Shown: positions 861 to 58,858 of the stretch, in pieces | Layout of the letters: every line of letters begins with the position of its first letter | Position numbering within the stretch: position 1 is the stretch's first letter | Assembly (NCBI GenBank): GCA_964016885.1 | Contig: OZ024740.1 | Coordinates: forward strand, 305,598,001 to 305,662,000 | Direction: 5' to 3' | DNA from: Eledone cirrhosa | Lineage: Eukaryota | DNA: 64,000 nucleotides | Position numbers and translations under genes: made by a program | The notes under the pieces: generated by a model | Database searches by the model: none | The model's input: only the letters and a program-made list of their open reading frames with translations | Told to the model about the DNA's origin: nothing

Positions 861-1999
861 AATGACAATAATAATGATAACAAAGAGGAAAATATAGTTT
901 CATGTTGAAAGGCCACCTCAAGTTACTTGAAACCATAATTATATATTCGTAAAATCTACATTATTTTGTAAAAATCTAATTACTATGTACTAATTATCTA
1001 AAAACAAAAACAAAAAAAAAAACGAAAAGGAAAAACTTAATTTTAAAGCTAACTACCTTTTAATGACTTCGTTGTGACTGCTCGTTGTAGGAAAGCATTT
1101 TGATATTTGGTTGCAACATGGAGGCTTTTATGATCTACTATTTTTAAAAATTCTGACTGCCTGTCTGTGGATTATTTCATTGAGTTTTCTTTTACTCTTT
1201 CGTATTTAAAAAACGTTCGTCTTATGGTATAACTTAAAATAGTAAGAGATAGACAAAAACATATTAATAAAAATTGAAAATTTGTTAGAAATGTTTTACT
1301 ATTTCAAAAGGTCGCACAAAATAACATAGAAGGCCGCAGGTTCCCCATCTCTTCTTTAGAAGAATGTAATAAAAGCATGAGAATCCACGATTATACTAAA
1401 TAACCTGTTTTCTTTTCTAAGATGATAGTGTAATTTGAAAGAGAGTTAGTTACTATTTCAAGTATATCGAGCTACTACTTAGAGGCCCCTTCCTTGACTC
1501 AATACTCCCTATAAATATGCAGCCATGTTCAAAGGTCTTCAGGGATTGCATTGCTTCAGTTGTTTGTAAATGGTATGAAGAATTTAGTTGTGAGTTGCTT
1601 ATGATCAGAAATGGTGTACTTTCCTTATATATATATATAGTTACTATAATTTGGAGTTGTTGAAGGCAACCAGATCGTCATGTCTTCATTGGAAGATGTT
1701 TTCAATATTTGTGTTCATGGCCATAGGTTTGCAAATGGTTACAGATGATTAAGGGATGGTATGATATACATCCGTTTGGGTAGAAGTAACAGTGAATAGG
1801 TCGTTGATGTACTGAAAAACAAACAAACAAACAAAAATCAAAAGCATAAGAACATAACCAATTCCTGAAGTACACAAGAATTAATGAATATTAGCGATTC
1901 TTATGTCAGATGTCCCTCTCCTCGAAGGCTTTACCAATGTTAAGGTCATCAACATTTCTTTAACCGAGAGTAACTGTACGAAGGAGGCAGTAGGATTGA

Positions 2000-2315
2000 T
2001 AATACAGTCACACAGGGGCTGATTAAGCTTGCAATAGAGCCCTTGGTTGAACATTTAATCAGGGTTCTTGTATATTATTATACAGTCACACAGGGGCTGA
2101 TTAAGCTTGCAATAGAGCCCTTGGTTGAACATTTAATCAGGGTTCTTGTATATTATAATACTGTCACACAGGGACCGATTAACCTTGCAATAGAGCCCTT
2201 GGTTGAAAATTTAATCAGGGTTCTTGTATATTATAATACTGTCACACAGGGGCTGATTAAGCTTGCAATAGAGCCCTTGGTTGAACATTTAATCGGAGTT
2301 TTTGTGTATTATATA
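2000..2315. repeat. 78-bp tandem repeat, about 4 copies
   Basis: Unit 'tacagtcacacaggggctgattaagcttgcaatagagcccttggttgaacatttaatcagggttcttgtatattat'; gives the 26-aa periodicity of ORF 2043..2321. Confidence 0.95.
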
Positions 2316-2357
2316 TGGTAGCAAAAAATAAATTTAGGATCCAATTTATACATTATA

Positions 2358-2800
2358 CGTATATTTAAATATGACGAGAGAATTCCTTTAGTTTAGAAGA
2401 GGAGTATTTCAGTTGTTTGATCAACTGAACAGCCTGCTCATGAAAATAACGTGAGAATTTCACAGGCACGTGCATCCTTAACGTAAGTCTTAATGAGATT
2501 CAGCGTGACACAGTGTATGACAATGCAGGCTCTTTGAATTATATTTACAGTCATTCTGACGGGTTTCCAAACAGTTTCGTATATTTAAATATGACGAGAG
2601 AATTCCTTTAGTTTAGAAGAGGAGTATTTCAGTTGTTTGATCAACTGAACAGCCTGCTCATGAAAATAACGTGAGAATTTCACAGGCACGTGCATCCTTA
2701 ACGTAAGTCTTAATGAGATTCAGCGTGACACAGTGTATGACAATGCAGGCTCTTTGAATTATATTTACAGTCATTCTGACGGGTTTCCAAACAGTTTCGT
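2358..2800. repeat. 220-bp near-perfect tandem duplication covering a SINE 3' part and its flank
   Basis: 'cgtatatttaaatatgacgagag...ccaaacagttt' starts at 2358 and again at 2578. Confidence 0.95.
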
Positions 2801-2930
2801 CTACCCAATTTCACTCCCAAGACAGGGGTCGACTTGAGCCTATGGTTAATGGCACTTGCTCAAGGCGGTACACAAGTGGATCGAACCTGAGAGCTAATGA
2901 TTGCAAAGCAAACATTTTAATCATTTGGCA
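2625..2930 (-). mobile_element. tRNA-derived SINE, family B
   Basis: B-box-like 'ggttcgatcc' on the minus strand near 2880; similar to 37130-37440, 43825-44120, 57745-57880 and 63920-64000. Confidence 0.65.
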
Positions 2931-2989
2931 TATTACACATATAACATACATCACATGTTGGGCACACAACACACACTATACATTACATA

Positions 2990-3918
2990 CGAGGTGTGTC
3001 AGAAAAGTTCCAGGACTGATGTCACAAAAGATTTATTTCAAACCCAAACTTCACACTAAGAGTTTTCTGCTTCAAAGTAATCCCCCTGGAGTCTAATGCA
3101 CTTTTCCACCCTTTTCTGCCACGCTTGCATGCACTCCTGGAAGGATTCTTCCGGGATCCTCCGCAGTTCCGTCGTCACGGCCTTTTTATGTCGTCCACGT
3201 CTTCAAAACGGGTCCCCTCCGAGTCGTACTCGAAGATCCATGACTCATCACCGGTGATGACTGTCCCGTCCCTAGCAAGTCTTGTTCGGTTTCAAGACGC
3301 TCCGCTCGAGGATGTACTGGCACACTTGCATGCGGCGTCGACCCTTCTGGTCATCGTTCAGCAGTTTTGACACCATCTTCGCGCAGACTTTCCGCATGTC
3401 CAAATCTTCAGTGAGAATCTTCTAGACGCTGTCCCGATTCATGCCTAGTTCATTTGCCATCAGTCGAGCAGTCAGCCGGCGATCGCTACGCACCATCTGC
3501 CTGACGCGCTCAACGTTGACCTCAGTCCTGGTTGTTGAGGGCCTTCCGCTCCTGGGGTCATCTTCCACATTCTCGCGTCCTTCTTTAAACCTCTTGCACC
3601 ACTCAAAAACACGTGAGCGTGACATCGTCTCATCTCCATACACTTGCTGCAGCAATCCCAGTGCTTCTGACGGAGTTTTCCCCAACCGTACCAGAAACTT
3701 CAAGTTTGTTCGTTGCTCTGTGCTCATTGCTTGACGACCTGAAACAGAGGACATGTATATAAAATTATAAAGAAAAACGTTTTATCGCTGCAGAGAGCTA
3801 AGATTACAGTTACATACTCCAAGGGGATTACTTTGAAGGAGAAAACTCTTAGTGTGAAGTTTGGGTTTGAAATAAATCTTTTGTGACATCAGTCCTGGAA
3901 CTTTTCTGACACACCTCG
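2990..3918 (-). mobile_element. Mariner (DD34D-type) transposon, internally deleted
   Basis: TIRs 'cgaggtgtgtcagaaaagttccaggactg...' at both ends, TA target duplications, transposase remnants inside. Confidence 0.95.
3060..3754 (-). pseudogene. Mariner transposase pseudogene
   Basis: N-terminal HTH 'EQRTNLKFLVRLGKT...WCKRFKEGRENVEDDPRSGRP', then a stop, 'VITGDESWIFEYD' (first catalytic D) and 'GTRFEDVDDIK'; the middle of the catalytic domain is missing. Confidence 0.9.
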
Positions 3919-3929
3919 TATATCACATA

Positions 3930-4420
3930 CATCACACACATTATATAGACTGTACACATTACATTCTTGCACACCACATACATTATACACATTATATAGA
4001 CTGTACACATTACGCTCTTACACACCACATACATTATACATATTATATAGACTGTACAAATTACACTCTTACACACTACACACATTATATAGACTGTACA
4101 AATTACACTCTTACACACTACACACATTATATAGACTGTACACATTACACTCTTACACATCACACACATTATACACATTATACACATTATATAGACTGTA
4201 CACATTACACTCTTACACACCACATACATTATACACATTATATAGACTGTACACATTACATTCTTGCACACCACATACATTATACACATTATATAGACTG
4301 TACACATTACATTCTTGCACACCACATACATTATACACATTATATAGACTGTACACATTACATTCTTGCACACCACATACATTATACACATTATATAGAC
4401 TGTACACATTACATACATCA
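3930..4420. repeat. About 51-bp minisatellite with variable units
   Basis: Repeats of 'cacattatatagactgtacacattacattcttgcacaccacatacattata'. Confidence 0.9.
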
Positions 4421-8771: not shown

Positions 8772-8891
<120 letters not shown>

Positions 8892-9082
8892 GGTTTGTTG
8901 GTTCACCACTGGATAGAATTGGTCATTCCGTATGGTCAATCTTGATGTAATATTATGGAGAGTACTCAACGTAGTGCAGTTCACCCGTCTTCGTTTGTGT
9001 AGTTGGTGGTGCTAATACGGAGTTAATTATTACAAATAAAATAACAGGAGGCAGGACTGGTGTAAATCCTTGAAAAGTTTAT

Positions 9083-9142
9083 AACACCATGATCATTTCA
9101 ATGACCGGGTTCCGTATGAATCCGGTGATATCATCAGGTATT
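9083..9142 (-). ncRNA. Minimal type-I hammerhead ribozyme motif (G at position 17, probably inactive)
   Basis: Minus strand: aatac-CTGATGA-tatcaccgg..ccggtcatt-GAAA-t-gatc-a-T-G-gtgtt; stem I aatac/gtgtt, palindromic loop III. Confidence 0.65.
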
Positions 9143-9332
9143 CGAAATATAACAAAGGAATATATAAAAGCCATGGATCCGAAAATCAGAGACAGAGAGG
9201 ACGACTGACCAACTAGCTGCTTTCACCTCGGTCAGTCGCCCTCAAGTGATGGCAACTCGGTCTACTAATGACGATCTGGTGAGGGGGCGAAGGCTTATAA
9301 TGTACTACCACCTCGCCGCCAGAGAATAAAAA

Positions 9333-9420
<88 letters not shown>

Positions 9421-10208
9421 AAAGTCAGCGTAAGGGTCACACTACAATCATGCTAGAAGACGCCGCGAAAAATGTTATTCTAAAGAACCGATATTTTAAC
9501 AAAGGCATATATATGGGTGTCTGTAGGTCTAATGTGTGAACAGAAAATTGGAACGTTAACTTATGTTAAGAATTATAGGATGAAATTAAATTATTAGAAA
9601 ATTAATAGAAAATTAAAGGTTTGTGTTGCTAGATTTATTTAATGAAATTACAGCGAGAGTCTTATATGAAAAGGTTTAAGTGTATTATAGGGAATCTCGA
9701 TAAGTTATCAAGGTGGGATATAGAGTAAAGATAAAAGCCTTCGATTGTAAACCCCAGCCAGCACCTCCTAACCACGTGTCAGCCAGTTTCGAGTGGTATC
9801 GTCTAGCGAAATAAATAGAAATTAATTTTTCAGAGTGATGTGGTGGATTTCCTGGCTGTGCGCCGGGCGCTCGGAAAGTTCAGCCTTCTTTGAGTGCTTG
9901 GAAAAATAAATTTCCCCTCTTTCGGTAAACGAAACTACTCGGAGCGGATCGATTTGCCCCGGGGCCCGCCGCACCGCCTGTTTTGACCGCCACATTATAC
10001 TCATACCTATAAACTCTAGGCTTAGGCATAACTGTTAGCTGTATCATGCCTTCCTCTGCTGGCACGTAAATAAACCCCTCATGTGTGAATTAATAGTATT
10101 CGTTTGGTATAGACCAAAGGTTCTCAACGAAGAGGGCTCTACATAACGACGTAATTATCCTCGCTTTTTCCCGTTCATTGCCAGAGAAAACTTTAATCTG
10201 TTTTTTAA

Positions 10209-10270
<62 letters not shown>

Positions 10271-10276
<6 letters not shown>

Positions 10277-10465
10277 AACAAGTATGACACCGACGGCAGA
10301 GCTCAAGCGGTTCGACGGCTAATTCTGGACCAGAATTAGCCGTCGAAACGGCTTGAGCTATACCGTCGGGGTCATACTTGTTCCTATTACCCACTCTACT
10401 ACCCTAAGTATTGAGTACTTTGGTGCGTTATGGTCCATCTGGTTCCTTACCACATTTCCTTCGTT
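10271..10465. mobile_element. Fold-back Penelope-like insert in (TA)n carrying the 3' half of a hammerhead
   Basis: Palindrome 10271-10387 plus an ~80-nt extension; 'GAAACGGcttgagctataCCGTC'; same family at 41011 and 61872. Confidence 0.7.
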
Positions 10466-10598
10466 ATATATATATATATATTAATTAAACTTTAATCTGT
10501 TATTTTAATAAATATTTGCTCTACGGTTCTTATATATTTGATATATATTTATCCTTATCAAACCCTCTTTCTATTTTAATCTTCAAATTTATTATTAT

Positions 10599-10782: not shown

Positions 10783-10958
10783 GTATATATATAATTATTG
10801 ATATATATAATTATTGATATGTTAGTTTATCACCAACACTTTGTATGCAGGGTAGAGCCCTCTACGAAGTACACAAGTGGGTCTCTTTACTCCGGAGTAT
10901 AATTATAATCCTGAAGTAAAAGTCACCAGCTTATAATTAACTTCATTTGTTCCTAATC

Positions 10959-11017
10959 GGTGTTATATATATTTCGGTGATAATCGTTATGCAACAGTTA
11001 TGACCTCATCAGACAGC
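10959..11017 (-). ncRNA. Minimal type-I hammerhead ribozyme motif
   Basis: Minus strand: gctgt-CTGATGA-ggt...acc-GAAA-t-atat-a-T-A-acacc. Confidence 0.7.
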
Positions 11018-12719: not shown

Positions 12720-13020
12720 GCGGGGACATAGAAATAATCGGGCTGGATGCCCGATCGCGCAGTTAAACCACTGGGAGTGAAGAACCCCTAGCCCATGTCA
12801 GGGTATTCTTCTAGGAGAAGGCATCTCAGGAAACTGGGTTAACTCCGATATAAAACCTGCGGCTCAGTAGTTACCGATGATGTTGATCTTTTCTTCTTTT
12901 CGGGTTATAGCTACTGTCGCTCAGAGAGTGGGATTGGTTCAGTGCACAGTCTTTCCTCACTTTAAAAATATTCGTCACGCACAGGCATTGCACGAGTGCA
13001 TTAATAATTATTAATAGTGT

Positions 13021-13055
<35 letters not shown>

Positions 13056-13060
13056 TATTA

Positions 13061-13096
<36 letters not shown>

Positions 13097-16000
13097 CCCA
13101 ATTCAATGATGTTCCAGAACAATGTAAACGAGATAATTGCCAATTTGGGTTCTGGAACAAAAAAGATCATTGGCAATAAGGGCAGGGGCCCCAAGTTATC
13201 ACAACCTGGGCCCGCCCGTCATCGTGCCATTGTAATAGAGCCAAACAGGGCATTTAGTCTTGGCTGCTGGAACGTACGGACGCTGCTTGACAGGGATTCT
13301 TTGGAGCGTCCTGAACGAAGGACCGCTCTTGTTGCGAAGGAGCTTCGACGTTACGATCTTGACATCGTGGCTTTGTCTGAGACGAGGTTAGCTGGAGATG
13401 GTCATCTTACGGAATTTTGTGGAGAATATACATTCTTCTGGAAAGGAAGAGATGAAGGAACCAGAAGAGAGGCTGGGGTAGGATTTGCTGTTAAGACTGT
13501 ACTGGTGAATAAATTGGAAGAATTCCCAGTGGGGATTAGTGAGCGTCTTATGTCCATGAGAGTTCCGCTGGACAAGGGAAGATATGCTACCCTGGTGAGT
13601 GTGTATGCTCCAACTATGAATTCTGTCGATGAAGAAAAACTGTCCTTTTACCATGCCTTGAAAGGTGTTTTAAGAAATATCCCTCAGGCAGACAAAGTCA
13701 TCGTGCTTGGTGACTTTAATGCTAGAGTGGGTAGGGATTTTAACACATGGAATGTAATCGGAAGGCATGGGGTGGGAAAGTGTAACAGCAATGGTATGCT
13801 CTTGCTGCAGATGTGTGAGGAGCTGGATCTGTGTGTTACCAACACCATGTTCCAACAAAAGAACAAATTCAAGACCACATGGATGCATCCTGCATCTAAG
13901 GAATGGCATCTTTTGGACTACGTCCTAGTCAGGATGCGTGACAGACAGGATGTGCGGTGTGTTCGTGTTCTTCGTGGAGCTGAGTGCTGGACGGACCACC
14001 GCCTGGTACGCGCAAAAGTGAATCTAATCACCAAACGTAAAATCCGGGCTCCTGGTGTTACCCTGCCCAAAAGATTGAATGCTGCTCGTCTTAAGGATAA
14101 AAATGTGAAGAGGACATTGGAAGAAGAGATGCAGGCTGCAGATCTTGGTGAGGATTGGCCGACCCTTAAAAAGTCGGTTTATGATGTAGGCAGACGTGTT
14201 CTGGGATTGGTGCAGAGAAAACATCAGGACTGGTTTAATGAGAAAGATGTGCATATAGATGACTTGTTGGCTGATAAGAGGCGCGCTCTGTCACGCTACT
14301 TGACGGCAAGACCACAGGAGAGGAATACGTTGCATGAGGAGCTCAGGGATGTAAAATCACGTGTTAGGCGGAGTCTTTCTCAGATGAAGGATCAGTGGTG
14401 GAGTGAGAAGGCTGGTGAGATACAAACTGCGTCTGATTGCAATAACACAAAGCTGTTGTACAGTCTCTTGCGTGAGGTTTATGGACCGTCTTCTTCTCTG
14501 GTGACACCGATTCGCAGCAAGGATGGCAAAGAACTTCTTCGTGACTCACAGGGAATTCTACGAAGGTGGCGGGAGCACTTTGATGATCTTTTGAATCAGC
14601 CGTCTGTCGTCAGTGAAGATTTCCTCAATCTCATTCCGGAAAGTCCTGTGAAAGTAGCTCTCGCAGAGCCTCCGACACTTGTGGAGGTTGCAGTGGCTAT
14701 TTCGAAGCTGAACAGTGGAAGATCTCCAGGTATGGATGGCATACATGCTGAGCTCCTACAATATGGTGGTGAGAGACTCCTGCAACATCTTCACTCTCTG
14801 TTTGGAGGGATATGGGCTAATGAATCCGTGCCTGAGGACTGGAGAGATGCAGTAATGGTGGTCTTGTACAAGGGAAAGGGTAACAGGAATGATTGTGGGA
14901 ACTACAGAGGTATATCATTGCTTTCTGTCGTGGGGAAAGTTTTATGTAGGGTGCTTCTGGACCGTCTGCTGACACACATTGCAGATTGTGTCCTTCCTGA
15001 AAGTCAATCTGGTTTTCGTGTTGGACGCGGCACTACTGATATGATCTTCTCAGCTAGACAGCTCCAGGAGAAGTGCATTGAACAGGGCTTGGATCTGTAT
15101 CAGGTTTTTGTCGATCTGACAAAGGCTTTCGATACTGTCAACAGAGATGCATTATGGAAGGTTCTCCAGAAACTTGGTTGCCCTGATAAGTTCCTTGCTT
15201 TAGTTAGGTCTTTCCATGACGACATGAAGGCTTGGGTTAATGTCGGAGGTAACATGTCGGAGCCTATCTCAGTAAAAAATGGAGTGAAACAGGGGGATAT
15301 TCCAGCACCGACCCTGTTTGCCATATACTTTGCAATGGTTTTCTGTATTGCATTCAGGAATTGCGAGCATGGTGTTTACATCCGATATCGAACCTCAGGC
15401 AGCATATTTAACATCAGGCGCTTTGCTGCGAAGACAAAAGTATTTACATCAGTCATAAGAGACCTCTTGTATGCAGATGATTGCGATCTTGTAGCGCACA
15501 CAGAGAGTGATATGCAGCACATTTTGAATGTATTTTCTGACGCTTGCACTGCCCTGGGTTTGACTGTCAGTCTCAAGAAAACCGTCGTCATGTACCAACC
15601 TGCACCTGGTAGGCAGTACACTGAACCAAACATCTATGTGTATGGCAAACGACTTGGAGTGGTTGATCAGTTTGTCTACCTGGGAAGCACTGTCAATCGA
15701 TACGGCAACCTTGACAGTGAAATCTCACTTAGGATTAGGAAAGCAAGTGATGCTTTCGGAAAGCTAGAAAGGCGACTCTGGGGTCGGCGAGACATATGCA
15801 GGAGGACAAAGGTAAAGGTGTACAGGGCATGTGTACTCTCTTGTCTTCTTTATGCCTGCGAGACCTGGGTCACATATCGACGCCACCTTAAGCAATTGGA
15901 GCGTTTCCATCAGATGTGTCTCAGACGGATACATGGCGTTCGCTGGAGGGACCACATCAGTGATGTCGAGATTTTGGAAAGCTCTATGTGTGACAGTATA

Positions 16001-16659
16001 GAAGCTCTTGTGCTTAAGCAGCGACTCCGTTGGAGTGGTCACCTTGCCAGGATGAAGGATTCTAGAATACCAAAACAACTCTTCTATGGAGAGTTGGTTA
16101 AAGGAAAACGACCGCCACATAAACCAAAAAAGAGGTATAAGGATTCCTTGAAGGCCTCTCTGAAAGACGCTAACATCTCTGCTGATACATGGGAAAATAT
16201 TGCTGCTGATCGTAATAAATGGAGAAAGACTGTATATGAGGGAAAAGTTGCCTTTGAGGCATCTCGAATCGCACACGAGAAAGTAAAGCGGGACGTGAGG
16301 AAGGGTATTGCTGTTGCACTTCCAGACGGCGAGGGTCCTCCTATGTTTCTGACATGCAGCGTCTGTGCGAGACTCTGCCTAAGCAAAGCTGGACTCGAAA
16401 GTCATCTTCGCAGTCATAAAGTAAGACCAGTGGTTGACTACCAGGCTGCTGTTGGAGATGCTACTCATCATGCTTGCCAAACATGTGGTAGAGAATGTAA
16501 ATCAGCAGGAGGACTCAAGCGACATGCAAAAGTACACGAACTCCAACCACAGCCGACTATTCCCAGTAAATGTTTTGGTTGCCGACTCTGTGCAAGACAT
16601 TTTGGATCATTGGCTGGGCTAAAAAGCCACATTCGATCGCAGCACTGTTAGTTGCTATC

Positions 16660-23907: not shown

Positions 23908-24223
23908 GTAAAATAAAACAAGGACGACTGGTTACTCCTTCATTACGTTTATTGGTTGGTGACGCGCGTTTTACCACTGATCAGCTCAAGGTTCGACCTG
24001 TATCGATCTAGCCCGACTCTGTAATCCGCGGCTCGTCAGAGCCCTTGTTTTACTATAATACACTTTGTCTAGCTCTACACCTCGACACAGAAGTGAACCT
24101 AAACATCGAGTGCTCACCCGGGTGAACCTACAGTAACTCCAAGTTACACTCCCTGGATATATATATATATATATATAGATGCGTGTTTGTGTTTGTGTGT
24201 GGCGGGCATTGTAACTTCCCCGG

Positions 24224-25259: not shown

Positions 25260-28200
25260 TGAAGGCAATTTCTACCAATACTTGTTGGTTTTTATTGCTC
25301 ATTATCGACAATAAATGACATTAAACAGAAATGATAACTCTGTCAAAGCTCACAATACTGATCAAAGGACACCAATGTCTGAATCATTTACGCCGAATAT
25401 TCATAGCAGTGAAGGCAATTTCTACCAATACTTGTTGGTATTTATTGCGCAACATAGCAGTGAAAGCAATTTTTACCTATACTTGTTTGTTTTTATTGCT
25501 CATAACGACATTAAATGACATTGAACATAAATGATAATAACTGTCAAAGCTCACAATACTGATCAAAGGACACCAATGTCCGAATCATTTACGTCGCATT
25601 AAAGATATGCATACATCAGCTCAAAGCTTCATTATAGACAATATTCAGGGTTGTTCCTCTGTTAGTGGTATCAATTATAAATTTTACACCATCAGGATCG
25701 CACACTTGAGATGTAGCAACATACAGTTTCCCATGGCTGAATGCTGGATCATTCAAGTAGACACCGACTCGCTTGAAAGTCTGTCCTTGTGCCTTGTTGA
25801 CAGTCATGGAGAAGGCCAAATTGACGGGAAACTGTCTCCTTTGCCAAATAAATGGCAGCAGATCTTCACTTGGTCTCAGCATGATCCTCGGAATGAGAAC
25901 CGAGTCCTCTCTGCTTAGGAGTTTAGCTTCTAAAACTCTTCCGTTAATCAATCTCTCAACAACCAATCTGGTACCATTGCAAAGACCCATTTTATGATTG
26001 ATATTTCTAAGCAATATAATCGGCATACCCTCTTTCAACCTCAAAATAATATGGGGGGGGGGGATCCGGGTATTTGAAGTGAATTCAGATACTCAGTCGG
26101 AACATCCATATTGTTCTGCTGATTAGGCTCCATTGCATCCGCACTGACGGTCAACCATTCCTCTCCAGGAAACATTCCGGCTACTTGTGAATTTATTTCA
26201 TCGACCATTGCATGAGTTAGAATAACGCGTTCCGATATCCAGGAGATATTCTGCCAAAAAGCATTCAAATTAGGGAACACCCAGTCAATCAATGCTTGGC
26301 GGTCCAGTGGCATGACCAAATGGTCTGGGATCTTACAGTCCGATTATCACCAACGTGTGGCAATTCATCGTTTCCCAACTGCATCAACCATCGGCCGTAT
26401 GTCTCAGCCTCTTCGTTTTTGCCCGAACATACGAAGTCGCATATTATCGTGTAATCGTAAAACTCTGAAATGGCGCCACAACGGGGACTTTTTCAGACAT
26501 GCATCGACAATTTGCGCTCTTCCTAACAATTGGTAGCACCTGTCTGAAATCGCCACCAAGAACGACAGTCTTACCACCGAATGGCAGGTCACTACCGCAG
26601 ATATCTCTCAAAGCTCTGTCCAATGCCTCCAGCAAATATCTGTGTGCCATTGGAGCCTCGTCCCAAATAATCAGAGACGTATTGCGTATAAGGCCCGCGA
26701 GTTCACTTTGTCCTGTAATGTTACAGACGCTCAACTTATCCGGAGCCAATGGAGCCTTGAAGCATGAGTGGAAGGTCCTTCCACCACTCAGCAAAGTGGC
26801 AGCGATCCCACTGGTGGCCACAGGGAGAGCAATCTTCCTCTGAGCTCTGACTGCCGATAACATAGTGTTGAAACAGAATGTCTTCCCGGTGCCTGCTGGA
26901 GCATCTATGAAAGCACAAACTTGCTCATTAGTGGAAATTGAGTGGAGAACGCCATCGACCAATTCTCTCTGAGATTGGGTCAACATTGGCATACGTTCAT
27001 CCACAATACGTTGCTGTTCCAGTGGATGAAACTGGAATAGTTCCCTCCGATCGAGTGGCAACCGTCTAAGCTGCAATCTCATGTTCAATACTAAGACACG
27101 TTGCCGCATTTCTTCATCAGGAATTGGCAAATTGAAATCTGTTAAACATTTGAAATGAACTTCAAGCAGTTGCTCAATATTGAGCAAAACAATAGCTTTC
27201 ATCAACTTTTCATCATCGACCTCAAGCTAATGCCTAAAATCATCAGCCATAATTCCCCCATGGCGTTCAAATAACTCTCTTGGTTCGGCAGGATTGCAGA
27301 ATCCTAGAATTGTGACAAACAACTGCCTTATTTGAGCTGGCATCTGTGTTGTTCCTGCAGCTTCCATGGCGTTATTCCATTCAGCGTCATCTTGAAGGAG
27401 TCCCAGATGCTGACACACAGCCTGGTATGTTTCATATTCCACGCCATTGATTGTTTTCAAATCAGCGAAGTTCTGTTTACCTATCGAAAAATCATTATGC
27501 AACAGAATTCGGAGATAAAACACATCACCAGATGCTGGATGGACATTACAAACCCGTCCAATAGTCATGAATCTCAACTTTAGTTTTCTATCATTCCATT
27601 TCTTTCCCTTCTTATCCCACGTATAGTACGAAGGGAAATGGCAGTAGAGTTGCCTTTGATCCGAGTTCAAAGCATGTTCCCTATTATGCTTGAACCACTC
27701 AGTTAATTCCGTCTTAGGAGGTGGTGCGTTAGCAATTCTTTCGACACCTCTTCTAGTGTTCTAAAAACAGGCCTATTCTTTAAGTGAACCGTCAGTTTCT
27801 GAACGCTGGGTTTGCGTTCATTGAGATCAAAATCGAACAATCTCCAGCAAGCTTCGCTAGATCCAATCGAGCGAACATCCTGGAATCTGCCAACTTCAAC
27901 TCCTTGGTTCGCTTCCTCATTCCTGACATTGATCATTACCCGATCATGACCTTTGTAAACATATTTGAATAGATATTTGCAAGCTTTCACTGAGCTACAA
28001 ATTTCCACATTAATATGACAACGATATTTCATAATCAAATATGGATTGTATGGCACAACCCATTGATTTGTAACCTGTCGACTGTTTACATTTTTGACCA
28101 AACCGCCATCTGCAGGCGACCGTCTTCTGTATGAGGGATGAGCATCCCCATCGTTCCAGGAAGTGTTCGTGACAAAAGATTTCGGAAAGTGCTTACTGCA

Positions 28201-29220
28201 TTGGCCATTTTTCATGCAAAGCGCTTTCTGATTTGCCACTCCGCATTGGTTGTGCACCATTGACTTTGCCACCAAGTTGCGTAGTGCCTCATTCTCCGGC
28301 AGTTCAGCACATACAATGCTGTCGACATCCTCAGCACATCTCAATTTGCAATCTCTATGTAAAATGATCAGCAAATGTGCATGTGGCAATCCTCTTTTTT
28401 AGAATTCAATTACGTATGTAAAAGCATCTATTCCTCCAAAGATACCCTCTTTTTCCAGATCATCCATTATCTTTTTCAGATATCCTTTGAATACTCTTGC
28501 CACAATATCAGGACGGTCCTTTGGCTGTTGTCCTGGCAAAAGTACATCCTTAATATCAGTCCATTCAGGATTGCATGTAACCGTTATAAACAAATCTGGC
28601 TTTCCAAACTTTCTGACAATAGCATCCAGATAGCGAATGTTCATATATCTCGGGCCGCCGATGAACGACGATGGCAAAATGACGCGTCGACCAATTTGCT
28701 TGTAATTGGCATCATCGGCTGTTATCGCATCCTGTATATTATTATACAATTCAGCTCTGATATGTTGCTGATGTATAGCTATATAATTTAGCCTTTGATT
28801 TTCGATCTTCATAACTCCCTTCACAACTCTGTATATGTTAGACTGACAGACAGGCACACAGACAGATAAACTGCGTGGCGATTGTGGAACGCCACACACA
28901 TACACGCATGGAAACGCGCACACGCACGCAAACGTACACACGCACACACTCACACATGTTGATAGTTTTTACTTTCTGTGGAACGCTGCACGCACGCACA
29001 CACACATAAACATACGTGCACGTACATACACACGCACACATGTTAATAGTTATTGAACACAGCGTTCACACTCTCCCCTCTCACTCCCTTATTGGCATTA
29101 TGCATATTAATTTCAGTTTGGCGTCGTTGAGGTGGGCGGAGTCATTTGAAACCTGTGAACCAATGATAATCGAGAATTATGACACACGGAATACTGACGT
29201 TGTTCAAATTAATATATAGA
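25260..29220 (-). mobile_element. Helitron, decayed autonomous-type copy
   Basis: 5' 'TCtatatattaatttgaac' at 29220 on the minus strand; RepHel fragments inside; 3' boundary uncertain and may extend to 24513. Confidence 0.85.
25616..28830 (-). pseudogene. Helitron RepHel (HUH Rep + PIF1 helicase) pseudogene
   Basis: ILPSSFIGGPRYM, FGKPDLFITVTCNPEW, PHAHLLI (HUH), KYLFKYVYKG, APAGTGKT, WDEAPM, GGDFRQVLP and RRQFPVNLAFSMTVNKAQGQT across six broken frames. Confidence 0.95.
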
Positions 29221-33851: not shown

Positions 33852-34069
33852 TTTCTGAATTTGTTTAGCAAGATTCTTTATCTGAAATCGTGTGTTGAAA
33901 CCGATATTGTTATACTTTGGGAGGGTCATGTTGCCAATAAGAAACACACGCACCAGTTGCTTTCACTTCAATTTATTATATATTTATAAATTTATAAATT
34001 TACAAATCTACAAATTTATAAATTTCTGGTTGGTTGGTTGGTTCCACAACCAGATAGTTGTTTATATAT

Positions 34070-34114
34070 AGTCATAGTCCTTTCGTCACACACTCTGTGA
34101 CCTCTTCAGTGACT
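34070..34114 (-). ncRNA. Hammerhead motif, inverted copy
   Basis: Reverse complement of 34229-34273. Confidence 0.75.
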
Positions 34115-34228
34115 GGGGATTCCTTCTTTGTTTCTGTGCCTTTCCTTTCTTCTGTCCTACGCCATTTTGTTTCAAAATGGCTTGGGAGAGAAGAAAGGAA
34201 AGGCACAGAAACAAAGAAAGGAATCCCC

Positions 34229-34273
34229 AGTCACTGAAGAGGTCACAGAGTGTGTGACGAAAGGACTATGACT
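34229..34273 (+). ncRNA. Minimal type-I hammerhead ribozyme motif
   Basis: agtca-CTGAAGA-g-gtcac-agagtgt-gtgac-GAAA-g-ga-c-T-A-tgact. Confidence 0.75.
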
Positions 34274-34431
34274 ATATATAAACAACTATCTGGTTGTGGA
34301 ACCAACCAACCAACCAGAAATTTATAAATTTGTAGATTTGTAAATTTATAAATTTATAAATATATAATAAATTGAAGTGAAAGCAACTGGTGCGTGTGTT
34401 TCTTATTGGCAACATGACCCTCCCAAAGTAT

Positions 34432-34509
<78 letters not shown>

Positions 34510-40930: not shown

Positions 40931-41010
<80 letters not shown>

Positions 41011-41016
<6 letters not shown>

Positions 41017-41234
41017 CGAAGGAAATGTGGTAAGGAACCAGGTGGACCATAACGCACCAAAGTACTCAATACTTAGGGTAGTAGAGTGGGTAATAGGAAC
41101 GAGTAGGACCCCGACGGCTGAGCTCAAGCCGTTTCGACGGCTAATTCTGGACTCAGTCCAGAATTAGCCGTCGAAACGGCTTGAGCTCAGCCGTCGGGGT
41201 CCTTCTCGTTCCTATATATATATATATTCTCGTT

Positions 41235-45129: not shown

Positions 45130-46620
45130 TGTTATCATTGCTGTTATTACTGTTCCTATTGTTATTATTACCGTTGTTATCATTGCTGCTATTACTGTTC
45201 CTATTGTTATTATTACCGTTGTTATCATTGTTGTTATTACTGTTCCTATTGTTATTATTACCGTTGTTATCATTGCTGTTATTACTGTTCCTATTGTTAT
45301 TATTACCGTTGTTATCATTGTTGTTATTACTGTTCCTATTGTTATTATTACCGTTGTTATCATTGTTGTTATTACTGTTCCTATTGTTATTATTACCGTT
45401 GTTATCATTGTTGTTATTACTGTTCCTATTGTTATTATTACCGTTGTTATCATTGTTGTTATTACTGTTCCTATTGTTATTATTACCGTTGTTATCATTG
45501 CTGTTATTACTGTTCCTATTGTTATTATTACCGTTGTTATCATTGTTGTTATTACTGTTCCTATTGTTATTATTACCGTTGTTATCATTGTTGTTATTAC
45601 TGTTCCTATTGTTATTATTACCGTTGTTATCATTGTTGTTATTACTGTTCCTATTGTTATTATTACCGTTGTTATCATTGTTGTTATTACTGTTCCTATT
45701 GTTATTATTACCGTTGTTATCATTGTTGTTATTACTGTTCCTATTGTTATTATTACCGTTGTTATCATTGTTGTTATTACTGTTCCTATTGTTATTATTA
45801 CCGTTGTTATCATTGTTGTTATTACTGTTCCTATTGTTATTATTACCGTTGTTATCATTGTTGTTATTACTGTTCCTATTGTTATTATTACCGTTGTTAT
45901 CATTGTTGTTATTACTGTTCCTATTGTTATTATTACCGTTGTTATCATTGTTGTTATTACTGTTCCTATTGTTATTATTACCGTTGTTATCATTGTTGTT
46001 ATTACTGTTCCTATTGTTATTATTACCGTTGTTATCATTGTTGTTATTACTGTTCCTATTGTTATTATTACCGTTGTTATCATTGTTGTTATTACTGTTC
46101 CTGTTGTTATTATTACCGTTGTTATCATTGCTGTTATTACTGTTCCTATTGTTATTATTACCGTTGTTATCATTGTTGTTATTACTGTTCCTATTGTTAT
46201 TATTACCGTTGTTATCATTGTTGTTATTACTGTTCCTATTGTTATTATTACCGTTGTTATCATTGTTGTTATTACTGTTCCTATTGTTATTATTACCGTT
46301 GTTATCATTGTTGTTATTACTGTTCCTATTGTTATTATTACCGTTGTTATCATTGCTGTTATTACTGTTCCTATTGTTATTATTACCGTTGTTATCATTG
46401 TTGTTATTACTGTTCCTATTGTTATTATTACCGTTGTTATCATTGTTGTTATTACTGTTCATGTTGTAATTATTACCGTTGTTATCATTGTTGTTATTAC
46501 TGTTCCTATTGTTATTATTACCGTTGTTATCATTGTTGTTATTACTGTTCCTATTGTTATTATTACCGTTGTTATCATTGTTGTTATTACTGTTCCTATT
46601 GTTATTATTACCGTTGTTAC
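45130..46620. repeat. 39-bp minisatellite, about 38 copies
   Basis: Unit 'gttatcattgttgttattactgttcctattgttattattacc'; gives 13-aa periodic pseudo-ORFs. Confidence 0.97.
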
Positions 46621-47099
46621 CATTGCTGTTGTTACTATTGTTATTATTTTTATTGCTGTTGTTGTTATTACTGTTATCATTGTTTTGTTACCATTATTGT
46701 TGTTACTGTTGTTATTGTTGTCGTTACTGGTGTTATTGTTATTGATATTGTTACTGTTACTATTGTTATTGTTACTGTTGTTATTATTGCTCTTATTACT
46801 GTTGTTGTTACTGTTGTCATCATTGTTGTGGTTACTGTTGTTGGTGTTATTGTTACTGTTGTTATTATTGCAGTTATTACTGCTGTTATTACTTCTTATT
46901 ACTGTTCTTATTGCTTTTTATTACTCTCGTTATTGCTTTTTATTGCTGTTGTTATTACTGTTGTTATTACTGTCGTTATTACGGGGGGGGGTAGGAGTGG
47001 GGGGGGGGGGTTTAAAAGAAACTGGTTCAGCGCACATTTCGTGTCACTCTATATTAATTTTCTAACTGATTAAGCTTAAATTTCAAGATATAGCAGATA

Positions 47100-51397: not shown

Positions 51398-51969
51398 CAT
51401 TTTGTATTTGTTTTGCAAGATACTTGATGTGAAATCGTGTGTTGAAACGGATATTGTTATACTTTGGAAGGGTCACGCTGCCAATAAAATCACACATACC
51501 AGTTGAATTTCATTTTTAGGGGTAGATAAAATAAAGTACCAGTAATGCACTGGGGTAATTTCTGGCCTTGCGCCAAAAGTAGAAACAATTATTAATAAGG
51601 TAAATAATCTATTCATTGGTTCGTTTAGCAACTGGATGCTTGTTAAATCCATGTGTGGTTGTCAGCTGAGAGAAAGGAGTATTCATTGCCGAAGTAGAGT
51701 TTTAATATTCATTTTATGAAGGCTAAATAGTGAGTCTTGTTACTCTGGAGATTCGCCTGTTTATCACAGGGTCATCATATATATATTGTGAAGAATAAAT
51801 ATACAAAATTCTTCACTGCATATACTCCGCCTGGACCACCAGATGTAATCTGGGATGCTTCAGGATGTTGAGTGCCTACATCGGGATACTTCGAGATCTA
51901 CCAGTTACAATATCCTAACTGGTCATCTAATATAATATAATATAATATAATATAATATAATATAATAAT

Positions 51970-55514: not shown

Positions 55515-55518
<4 letters not shown>

Positions 55519-56117
55519 TTTGAGTTTATGTTGGTTGTATACCAACACCTCAGTATGCAGGCTGGAGCACTCGACGAAGTGCGCAGGTTGGTTTGGTTAC
55601 TCCGGAGTAGTGTAAAATAAAGTTAAATAAAAGTCAAATGATTAAAATTTAGCTTCGTTTATTACTGCTATATATATTTCAGTGATAGAATTCTATAGAC
55701 TTCTGACTGAGGAATGCTCTCAGAACTGAACAATGGGAAGTTTGACACATTTTTTGATATTTTGTTCCTTCAACACCTTGTCCCTTCTACCATTTTATCA
55801 ATTTTTAAGCTAACTCCAACAATGACAACACTAATAACTGACCAATGAGAGGAGAAGGGGACCTGTGACACTAAAATTCGTTTGTTTGAATTCATATGAC
55901 TCCAGTTCCCCAGTGAATTAACAACCCAACAAGGAACTGGGCATATCAGAGTATTGACAATATCATACACCTAAACAACATATGTACTTGTCTATACCAT
56001 ACTAATTCAAACTGCCTGAAGAGGTCACAGCCAAAGATGGCTGTCACTGAAATATATATAGCAGTAATAAACGAAGCTAAATTTTAATCATTTGACTTTT
56101 ATTTAACTTTATTTTAT
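55515..56117 (+). mobile_element. Penelope-like insert with inverted, extended 5' pLTR, in (TA)n
   Basis: 55613-55685 is the reverse complement of 56044-56116; hammerhead at 56011; second copy at 58605-58803. Confidence 0.8.
56011..56065 (+). ncRNA. Minimal type-I hammerhead ribozyme
   Basis: actgc-CTGAAGA-ggt-c-acagcca-aaga-tggctgt-c-act-GAAA-t-atat-a-T-A-gcagt, followed by aataaa. Confidence 0.85.
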
Positions 56118-58404: not shown

Positions 58405-58696
58405 TAGGAGGATGCTGTGTAGCTAATTGCTTATTTTAACCTGTAATCCATGTTTCATTTCTGTCGCACTTCTTTTCTCCCCCTCTCCCTCTTCCTCTTT
58501 TTCTCTCTGTGATGAATCTATGTTTTGGGCTTACTTTATTCATATATATGTTTTTGTATGTCAGTTAATATTCAAACTTACAACGATTGGCATTATATAT
58601 GAAACAACAAACCAACCAGGAACTGGGCATATCAGAGTATTGACAAAGTTATACACCTCAACAACATGTGAACTCGTCCCTACCACACTAATTTGG

Positions 58697-58751
58697 ACTG
58701 CCTGAAGAGCTCACAGCCAAAGATGGCTGTCACCGAAATATATATAGCAGT
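58697..58751 (+). ncRNA. Minimal type-I hammerhead, second copy of the 56011 family
   Basis: actgc-CTGAAGA-gctcacagccaaagatggctgtcacc-GAAA-tatatata-gcagt-aataaa; element spans 58605-58803. Confidence 0.83.
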
Positions 58752-58797
58752 AATAAACGAAGCCAAATTTTAAATATTTGACTTATTTATTTTAATT

Positions 58798-58858
<61 letters not shown>

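What the first reader, a model, noticed from the sequence alone, without database searches (positions are those of the whole stretch)
8958..8977. Conserved motif downstream of the hammerhead in otherwise divergent families
Seen on the ribozyme strand ~80-110 nt past the cleavage site: gcactacgttgagtactc (8960-8977), gtacttcgtagagggctc (10855-10872) and gcacttcgtcgagtgctc (55565-55582). Each is preceded by 'actccg' (tactccggagta near 10890 and 55600; taactccgta near 9020). Weaker matches lie at 10128-10142, 10408-10421 and 24104-24114. At 55565 the motif lies in the extended arm, beyond the fixed 3' end. Inference: an undescribed cis-element such as an internal promoter, an RT-binding site or a second RNA structure.
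Basis: partly seen in the sequence, partly recalled or inferred. Interest (0 to 1): 0.7.

Follow-up and report, generated by a model that had tools for sequence, protein, structure and literature searches.

The report
Twin bulged hairpins set retroelement ends
The motif is one strand of a small bulged hairpin that one group of Penelope-like jumping genes carries twice in front of its gene; inserted copies end a few bases before one hairpin or the other, so the pair likely tells the element's copying enzyme where to start on each DNA strand, which would explain the long-puzzling one-sided 'tail' of these insertions.

Summary
The motif is real at all three main sites. It and the upstream 'actccg' are the two strands of one hairpin, 5'-N-CUC-X...X'-UH-GAG-N', with a 2-nt U-led bulge, in the 5' UTR of Hydra-clade Penelope-like elements. 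In this genome 177 of 180 (TA)n-terminated element ends lie within -12..+2 nt of a hairpin start. All 52 two-armed insertions scored end once at each hairpin. Relatives from marine metagenomes (29-41% protein identity) keep both hairpins; the bulge-closing pair is Watson-Crick in 86 of 86 calls, with 6 double changes on a tree. The motif is non-coding, and two families without an RT gene keep it. Best reading (0.7, inferred): each hairpin binds the element's reverse transcriptase and sets an internal start site. Limits: no biochemistry, weak predicted folding in family C, and the tree sign test is not significant. I found no description in four paper searches. This scan reached the same twin-hairpin reading earlier on other DNA (unreviewed AI notes, not independent support).

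The parts
8961..9023 (-).
   Evidence: descriptor scan; the minimum-energy fold gives exactly this helix and bulge
9088..9137 (-). Minimal hammerhead motif of family A; this copy has G where other copies have A at the cleavage triplet
   Evidence: cleavage not tested
8877..9836 (-). Long-ended arm of a family A insertion (1.98-kb unit with no RT match), ending in (TA)n at about 8889
9833..10114 (+). Inverted second arm of the family A insertion; it does not reach the family's short end but runs into another family's sequence
9869..9898 (+). Third hairpin-like copy inside the family A body, with a GC-rich upstream side; copies run through it
   Evidence: pairing read by eye
10393..10419 (+). 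Hairpin 1 of family E (U-A at the bulge-closing pair) in the long arm of the two-armed insertion 10272-10470
10856..10898 (-). Hairpin 1 of family B; the outer pair is broken in this old copy and intact in most other copies
10964..11012 (-). Minimal hammerhead motif of family B
24072..24114 (+). Hairpin 1 of a further family (G.U outer pair, U-A bulge-closing pair), followed by about 40 nt and (TA)n
   Evidence: read by eye, missed by the strict descriptor
41061..41087 (-). Hairpin 1 of family E in the long arm of the two-armed insertion 41010-41215
55517..55688 (-). Long arm of a family C insertion, carrying the ~99-nt tail and ending 3 nt or so before the position of hairpin 2
55566..55608 (-). 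Hairpin 1 of family C; starts 4 nt after the short fixed end
   Evidence: predicted folding of this copy favours other helices
55684..56116 (+). Short arm of the same insertion, with the hammerhead motif at 56016-56060, ending in (TA)n just before hairpin 1
58600..58804 (+). Older family C relative with hammerhead, ending at the short end (no hairpin included)

Best explanation
The motif is the 3' strand of a U-bulged hairpin present twice in the 5' UTR of Hydra-clade Penelope-like elements, and each copy likely binds the element's reverse transcriptase and sets an internal start site a few bases upstream. Shown: the unit order is ORF, 3' UTR, hammerhead, short end, hairpin 1, long end, hairpin 2, AUG. 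Copies end 2-8 nt (mostly 3-5) before one hairpin or the other, at U/A-rich letters that merge with the (TA)n target. Two-armed insertions use each end once. Inferred: on a read-through transcript of tandem copies, two RT-endonuclease molecules bind the two hairpins and cut both strands of a (TA)n target. Each nicked 3' end pairs with 2-4 U/A letters just 5' of its hairpin and primes cDNA away from it. The two cDNAs are then joined head to head, often through 2-9 shared bases. The 'tail' is simply the distance between the hairpins. More speculative: the bulge (paired purine, U, H, then G-C and A-U pairs) has the layout of an arginine-sandwich site, and the conserved N-terminal R-x-R-W-K helix would read it.
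For: End position: 177 of 180 TA-terminated ends in 11 reference families lie within -12..+2 of a hairpin start, although hairpin spacing runs from 74 to 144 nt. Modes are -4/-5 (47 of 72 short ends) and -3 (51 of 108 long ends). The second hairpin was predicted for family E and then found 4 nt past its long end (318 matches, 0 control). 52 of 52 two-armed insertions have one short and one long end. In metagenome relatives 8 of 15 alignment ends lie at -4..0, five of them at -3. Structure: bulge-closing pair Watson-Crick in 79 of 89 calls with anchors blind to it (shuffled mean 52); next pair 55 of 89 (25.9); a control pair outside the helix 26 of 89 (33.9); first bulge letter U in 88 of 89, second never G. 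With the 5' anchor chosen by the outer pair, 86 of 86 (66 C-G, 20 U-A), and all 6 changes on the protein tree change both letters. Inner stems add 2.3 pairs against 0.59 shuffled in 47 hairpins. Cis action: families A (1.98 kb) and K (1.3 kb) have no RT match yet keep hammerhead and both hairpins. Literature: a Poseidon PLE starts RT internally at two sites that match its tail ends, and needs RNA up to +172, beyond the start site at +111-118 (PMC11167929). The model's first ~55 residues align with telomerase RTs, while most other RTs align only from about residue 54. R35, R37 and K39 are basic in at least 93% of rows.
Against: No binding or RT assay exists for this clade, so all function is inferred from position and covariation. 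Predicted folding is weak: outer four pairs above 0.5 in 55 of 86 calls, bulge-closing pair in 24 of 86, and about 0.01 for both family C hairpins, where other helices win. No z-score was below -1.9 in 6 folds. The tree-aware sign test is not significant (3 independent pairs on starred branches, all concordant, p 0.25), and the next-inner pair of hairpin 2 is often unpaired (U-U in 9 of 33). G.U against A.C counts (7 vs 3) are too few to tell RNA from antisense cDNA. A third hairpin-like copy in the family A body was read through in the copies seen. No second hairpin was found for family B (0 matches). 7 of 15 metagenome alignment ends are not near a hairpin; at least 4 of these are cross-family or microsatellite matches. 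Many loci were fetched with queries that contained an end, which biases which ends were sampled.
Confidence: 0.7

Rival explanations
1. The hairpin acts in the cDNA, not the RNA: cDNA starts further downstream, folds the antisense hairpin, and the GIY-YIG endonuclease trims it 3-5 nt away while resolving the intermediate.
For: Craig et al. ascribe the tail to EN-mediated resolution (PMC8557442, passage). Watson-Crick covariation holds on either strand, and the wobble count does not separate them.
Against: In the one PLE tested, both tail ends are RT start sites in vitro (PMC11167929). Ends merge with (TA)n through U/A-rich letters (A+T 0.72-0.91 at -2..-8 against 0.63 background), as expected for priming.
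Confidence: 0.12
2. The hairpin directs cutting of the RNA just upstream of itself, by a host nuclease, the element's protein or as an unknown ribozyme part, and ordinary end-primed TPRT then starts at these RNA 3' ends.
For: It gives the same fixed offsets. Frangieh et al. report RNA-seq read ends at the start sites (PMC11167929).
Against: In that paper unprocessed RNA was the main substrate and initiation was internal. One transcript cut before hairpin 1 cannot supply the long arm, so the strict one-short-one-long rule (52 of 52) needs an extra assumption. No Rfam family matches.
Confidence: 0.1
3. The hairpins are only RNA-selection or translation-control signals bound by the protein, or part of an internal promoter; ends are set by the nearest U/A-rich stretch that can pair with (TA)n.
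For: The hairpins lie in the 5' UTR, 31-78 nt (second copy) before the AUG. A PLE promoter is thought to lie in the pLTR (PMC11167929). The read-through third copy lacks U/A-rich letters upstream.
Against: The UTRs are A+T-rich throughout, yet ends cluster at the two hairpins. Compensatory changes and a free inner length of 4-48 nt do not fit a double-stranded promoter element.
Confidence: 0.07
4. The conservation reflects codons of an ORF N-terminus, or chance.
For: By eye the three first-named sites can be read as similar short peptides on either strand.
Against: Family C has no AUG between hammerhead and main start and an in-frame stop three codons before it. Distances to the AUG fall in all three frames (11/9/10 and 11/7/12). 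Non-coding families keep the motif. 1758 matches against 5 controls.
Confidence: 0.01

Closest known systems
Hydra clade of C-terminal-endonuclease Penelope-like elements (Craig et al. 2021, PMC8557442; passages, section 11 and supplement searches read)
   Same: RWK, DKT, CxCx5C linker, CxxC/CxH, hammerhead, (TA)n targets, tandem and inverted copies. The published consensus Hydra-1_Ajap carries both hairpins before its AUG, unannotated.
   Different: The paper describes no hairpin ('hairpin' and 'stem-loop' 0 times in the supplement), gives tails of 30-40 bp and ascribes them to endonuclease resolution. Here tails are 55-144 nt and equal the hairpin spacing. The family C unit (about 4.1 kb) is longer than the <3 kb typical of the clade.
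Poseidon element PAc of Anolis, internal RT initiation at two sites (Frangieh et al. 2024, PMC11167929; main text parts 1-2 of 4 read)
   Same: Two internal start sites bound the tail; both target strands are cut and extended; RNA downstream of the start site is needed.
   Different: Different clade; the PAc sites lie inside the ORF, one in an AC-rich stem-loop. No repeated, conserved signal was defined. I could not read the PAc sequence file, so whether it has a like pair is untested.
Arginine-sandwich bulges of HIV TAR and 7SK (Pham et al. 2018, PMC6189040; passages read)
   Same: Local layout: paired purine, bulged U, then a G pair and an A-U pair; 7SK has a 2-nt U40-U41 bulge whose U40 forms a triple with A43-U66, the same register as here.
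   Different: The loop closes the other side of the helix, there is no shared ancestry, and no triple or arginine binding was tested. It is a resemblance of layout only.
Other RT-positioning RNAs: hepadnaviral epsilon, DGR spacer, R2 3' UTR, telomerase RNA (recalled, not read)
   Same: A structured RNA element bound by the RT fixes where copying starts.
   Different: Each of those is single. Here two copies would each serve one target strand, and each lies 3' of its start site so that it is not copied from that start.

Membership tests
Hydra-clade PLE (host element) | Single ORF with RT and C-terminal GIY-YIG-type endonuclease | tested here: met
   892-aa ORF in family C; model closest to telomerase RTs, Z 17.9. 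The EN is read from sequence motifs; Pfam gave no significant hit. Families D, E, H, I, J encode relatives.
Hydra-clade PLE (host element) | RWK motif, DKT in place of DKG, CxCx5C linker, CxxC and CxH around the EN end | tested here: met
   All present in the family C protein (columns); definition from section 11 of PMC8557442.
Hydra-clade PLE (host element) | Hammerhead motif in the pLTR; insertion into (TA)n; tandem/inverted copies with tail | tested here: met
   The motifs match the descriptor only; Rfam found none at gathering score.
Hydra-clade PLE (host element) | Placement inside the Hydra clade on an RT tree with reference clades | not tested
   The tree holds no Neptune, Nematis or Poseidon references.
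Hydra-clade PLE (host element) | Own ORF in the family at the finding's coordinates (family A) and in family B | tested here: inconclusive
   Family A unit has no RT match and is filed as a likely non-autonomous partner; no full unit of family B was found, its tail is 73% like family C.
Arginine-sandwich motif (TAR/7SK type) | Bulged pyrimidine after a paired base, followed by a pair and an A-U pair | tested here: met
   U first in 88 of 89 bulges; the G-C and A-U pairs were search anchors, so their constancy is built in.
Arginine-sandwich motif (TAR/7SK type) | U.A-U base triple and intercalated arginine | not testable with these tools
   needs NMR, crystal or binding data
Known Rfam RNA family | Match to a covariance model | tested here: not met
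   0 matches in the window at gathering score; 2 weak unrelated matches at E<=1 in three UTR-bearing loci.

The most novel reading that the evidence does not exclude
Hydra elements use a duplicated arginine-sandwich-type RNA hairpin as a two-site start code: each copy docks one RT of a pair through a telomerase-like N-terminal RNA-binding helix and primes one strand of a double-cut (TA)n target, so hairpin spacing alone sets tail length and any RNA given the pair can be inserted.
Probability: 0.4. Interest if true: 0.82.

Novelty: new variant of a known kind. Interest (0 to 1): 0.66.

Why it matters
How Penelope-like elements, the closest relatives of telomerase RT, pick their internal start sites and why insertions carry a tail on one side only are open questions (PMC8557442, PMC11167929). 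A short, covarying, twice-repeated signal with a fixed offset to each end makes both directly testable with a few point mutants. It also gives a simple marker for finding element boundaries and non-autonomous partners, and a candidate minimal signal for RNA-templated insertion into (TA)n.

Tried and rejected
Coding origin: rejected. HDV-like or other known ribozyme: no fit by eye, no Rfam match. Pol III B box: no fit by eye (consensus recalled). Palindrome-driven RNA dimer: the 12-nt palindrome exists only in families B and C, and the 3' strand is not self-complementary in most metagenome relatives. The match at 10128 was rejected as antisense to its host element; the strict call at 51824-51876 was not examined and may be chance. 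Six other hammerhead-like sites in the window (34075, 52421, 52851, 61208, 61578, 33524) have no hairpin call in the next 260 nt; their clades were not determined. No second hairpin found for family B. Dimer prediction for residues 1-480: no answer, score 0.00, alignment not used. Frangieh supplement: file 2 held no text, file 3 is a run list, file 1 was not opened and the sequence file cannot be read, so a like signal in PAc may be shown there. My first refinement of end positions was distorted by reference polymorphisms and was replaced. Some window coordinates in 'parts' were read by hand and may be off by a base or two.

Full report
OBSERVATION. The three motifs are at the stated places on the minus strand, each with the hexamer 26-46 nt upstream and a minimal hammerhead motif about 87-111 nt upstream. 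The window comes from a 3.0-Gb genome rich in (TA)n; protein hits point to an octopus relative, which is inference. Each site belongs to a different repeat family (here A, B, C), with 1600-4200 first-look candidates each. Of the weaker matches, 10408 and 24104 hold and 10128 does not.

HOST ELEMENT. A long family C copy holds an 892-aa ORF with RT and a C-terminal endonuclease. It has the RWK, DKT, CxCx5C and CxxC/CxH marks that define the Hydra clade of Penelope-like elements (PMC8557442 section 11). Tandem junctions show the order hammerhead, motif, about 100 nt, AUG, with no earlier AUG and an in-frame stop three codons before the start. The motif is therefore in the 5' UTR. Family A, at the finding's coordinates, is a 1.98-kb unit with no RT match, and family K is a 1.3-kb tandem unit with none; both keep the hammerhead and the motifs.

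WHAT THE MOTIF IS. Comparing families showed that the hexamer pairs with the motif: N-CUC-X on the 5' side with X'-U-H-GAG-N' on the 3' side, leaving U-H bulged, followed by an unpaired RCU, around an inner stem-loop of 4-48 nt. A second copy follows 55-144 nt later. Its pattern has 1758 matches in the genome against 5 for the reversed control. For family E I predicted the second copy from the end position and found it (318 matches, 0 control); the same search failed twice for family B. One metagenome scan gave 78 loci at 29-41% protein identity; 66 ORF starts were located. With 12 own-genome references this made 78 UTRs, 57 after removing those at least 72% alike: 38 gave two calls, 13 one and 6 none; some of the misses are cut contigs or single mismatches in the anchor.

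COVARIATION. With anchors blind to the tested pairs, X:X' was Watson-Crick in 79 of 89 calls (shuffled mean 52), the next pair in 55 of 89 (25.9), the outer pair in 74 of 89 (62.7), and a control pair outside the helix in 26 of 89 (33.9); permutation p about 1e-4 for the three helix pairs, which ignores relatedness. With the 5' anchor chosen by the outer pair, X:X' paired in 86 of 86. On a FastTree of 51 proteins (33 with two calls) hairpin 1 changed between C-G and U-A six times, both letters each time. The independent-pairs test had only 3 pairs on starred branches, all concordant, p 0.25. The outer pair also swaps (G-C 77, A-U 5, U-A 4; pairing there is built into that call set). Against this, free-RNA folding is marginal: outer pairs above 0.5 in 55 of 86, X:X' in 24 of 86, family C near 0.01. 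Family A at 8950-9035 and one metagenome copy fold as drawn, family C and E window copies do not, and no z-score is below -1.9. If the hairpin forms in those families, protein likely has to stabilise it.

RELATION TO THE ENDS. Every family has two fixed 3' ends. Of 180 (TA)n-terminated ends in 11 reference families, 177 lie within -12..+2 nt of a hairpin start; family B was left out for lack of a second hairpin. Modes are -4/-5 for hairpin 1 and -3 for hairpin 2, blurred by U/A letters shared with the target. All 52 two-armed insertions that could be scored, over 8 family groups, have one short and one long end; insertions whose second arm lay outside a fetched locus or lacked an end were not scored, and the window's own family A insertion is such a case. 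In metagenome loci 8 of 15 alignment ends lie at -4..0; the other 7 include two cross-family and two microsatellite matches. Head-to-head junctions show 2-9 shared bases in 27 of 36 family C cases but mostly not in family E (3 of 17); BLAST extension inflates such overlaps. Sampling caveat: many loci were fetched with queries holding an end, but families D, E, I, J and K came largely from flanks and 40 blind 10-kb stretches.

MECHANISM. Shown: position, duplication, covariation, non-coding status, the one-short-one-long rule. Inferred (0.7): each hairpin binds the RT and fixes an internal start 3-5 nt upstream, one per target strand. This rests on the Poseidon element PAc, where RT starts at two internal sites that match the tail ends, both strands are cut and extended, and RNA beyond the start site is required (PMC11167929). 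Speculative: the bulge has the layout of the arginine-sandwich sites of TAR and 7SK (PMC6189040 passages). The protein's first 55 residues hold a conserved basic helix and align with telomerase RTs from residue 1, whereas most other RTs align from about residue 54; that this part of telomerase is its RNA-binding domain is recalled. Rivals are trimming of a cDNA hairpin by the endonuclease (0.12), RNA cutting before the hairpin (0.10), and a binding, translation or promoter role without control of the ends (0.07).

NOVELTY. The host elements are ordinary Hydra PLEs, and a published consensus (Hydra-1_Ajap) carries both hairpins unannotated. Four full-text searches and a supplement search showed no description. 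The library lacks most subscription journals and Repbase reports; of the retrozyme preprint 10.64898/2026.07.22.740005 I saw only abstract and outline, and of PMC4209133 only passages. After I had reached this reading, the scan's index showed several unreviewed agent reports with the same twin-hairpin idea on other windows; they are not independent evidence. Added here: tree-based counts, the strict arm rule, retention in families without an RT gene, the folding weakness and the arginine-sandwich lead.

VERDICT. A real, apparently undescribed, duplicated RNA signal of a known retroelement clade; new variant of a known kind; interest 0.66.

Noticed in passing
window 33904-34439: Two-armed hammerhead-bearing insertion of another family with a ~55-nt one-sided tail but no bulged hairpin; its tail ends look self-complementary. 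It may use a different start signal.
   Followed up: partly
window 55530-55550 and family B, D tails: A second, 7-8 bp hairpin sits 10-25 nt before the long end in families B, C and D (read by eye); not tested for covariation.
   Followed up: no
window 9869-9898: Third hairpin-like copy inside the family A body with G-C at the bulge-closing pair; read through in the copies seen.
   Followed up: partly
L307 (1.98-kb unit), L308 (1.3-kb tandem unit): Non-coding families with hammerhead and twin hairpins; family A has over 4000 first-look candidates, more than the coding family C.
   Followed up: partly
L031:2419-5094, residues 480-616 and 695-746: Family C protein has long low-confidence inserts between RT and endonuclease, making it about 190 aa longer than most relatives; many copies are 100% identical, so the family is young.
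   Followed up: no
L312; G000:C1:91476594-91487266: Family E forms perfect head-to-tail arrays of a 3.54-kb unit with an open ORF.
   Followed up: partly
L259, L292: In these two related metagenome elements both hairpins have switched the outer pair to U-A together, which hints at one shared binding protein.
   Followed up: partly
window 12911-16651 (+): Intact 1246-codon frame of an endonuclease-RT LINE with C-terminal zinc-finger-like motifs.
   Followed up: no
window 25616-28968 (-): Broken Helitron-like Rep/helicase frames, named from recalled motifs.
   Followed up: no
window 45130-46684: Array of 34.6 copies of a 45-bp unit at 97% match.
   Followed up: no
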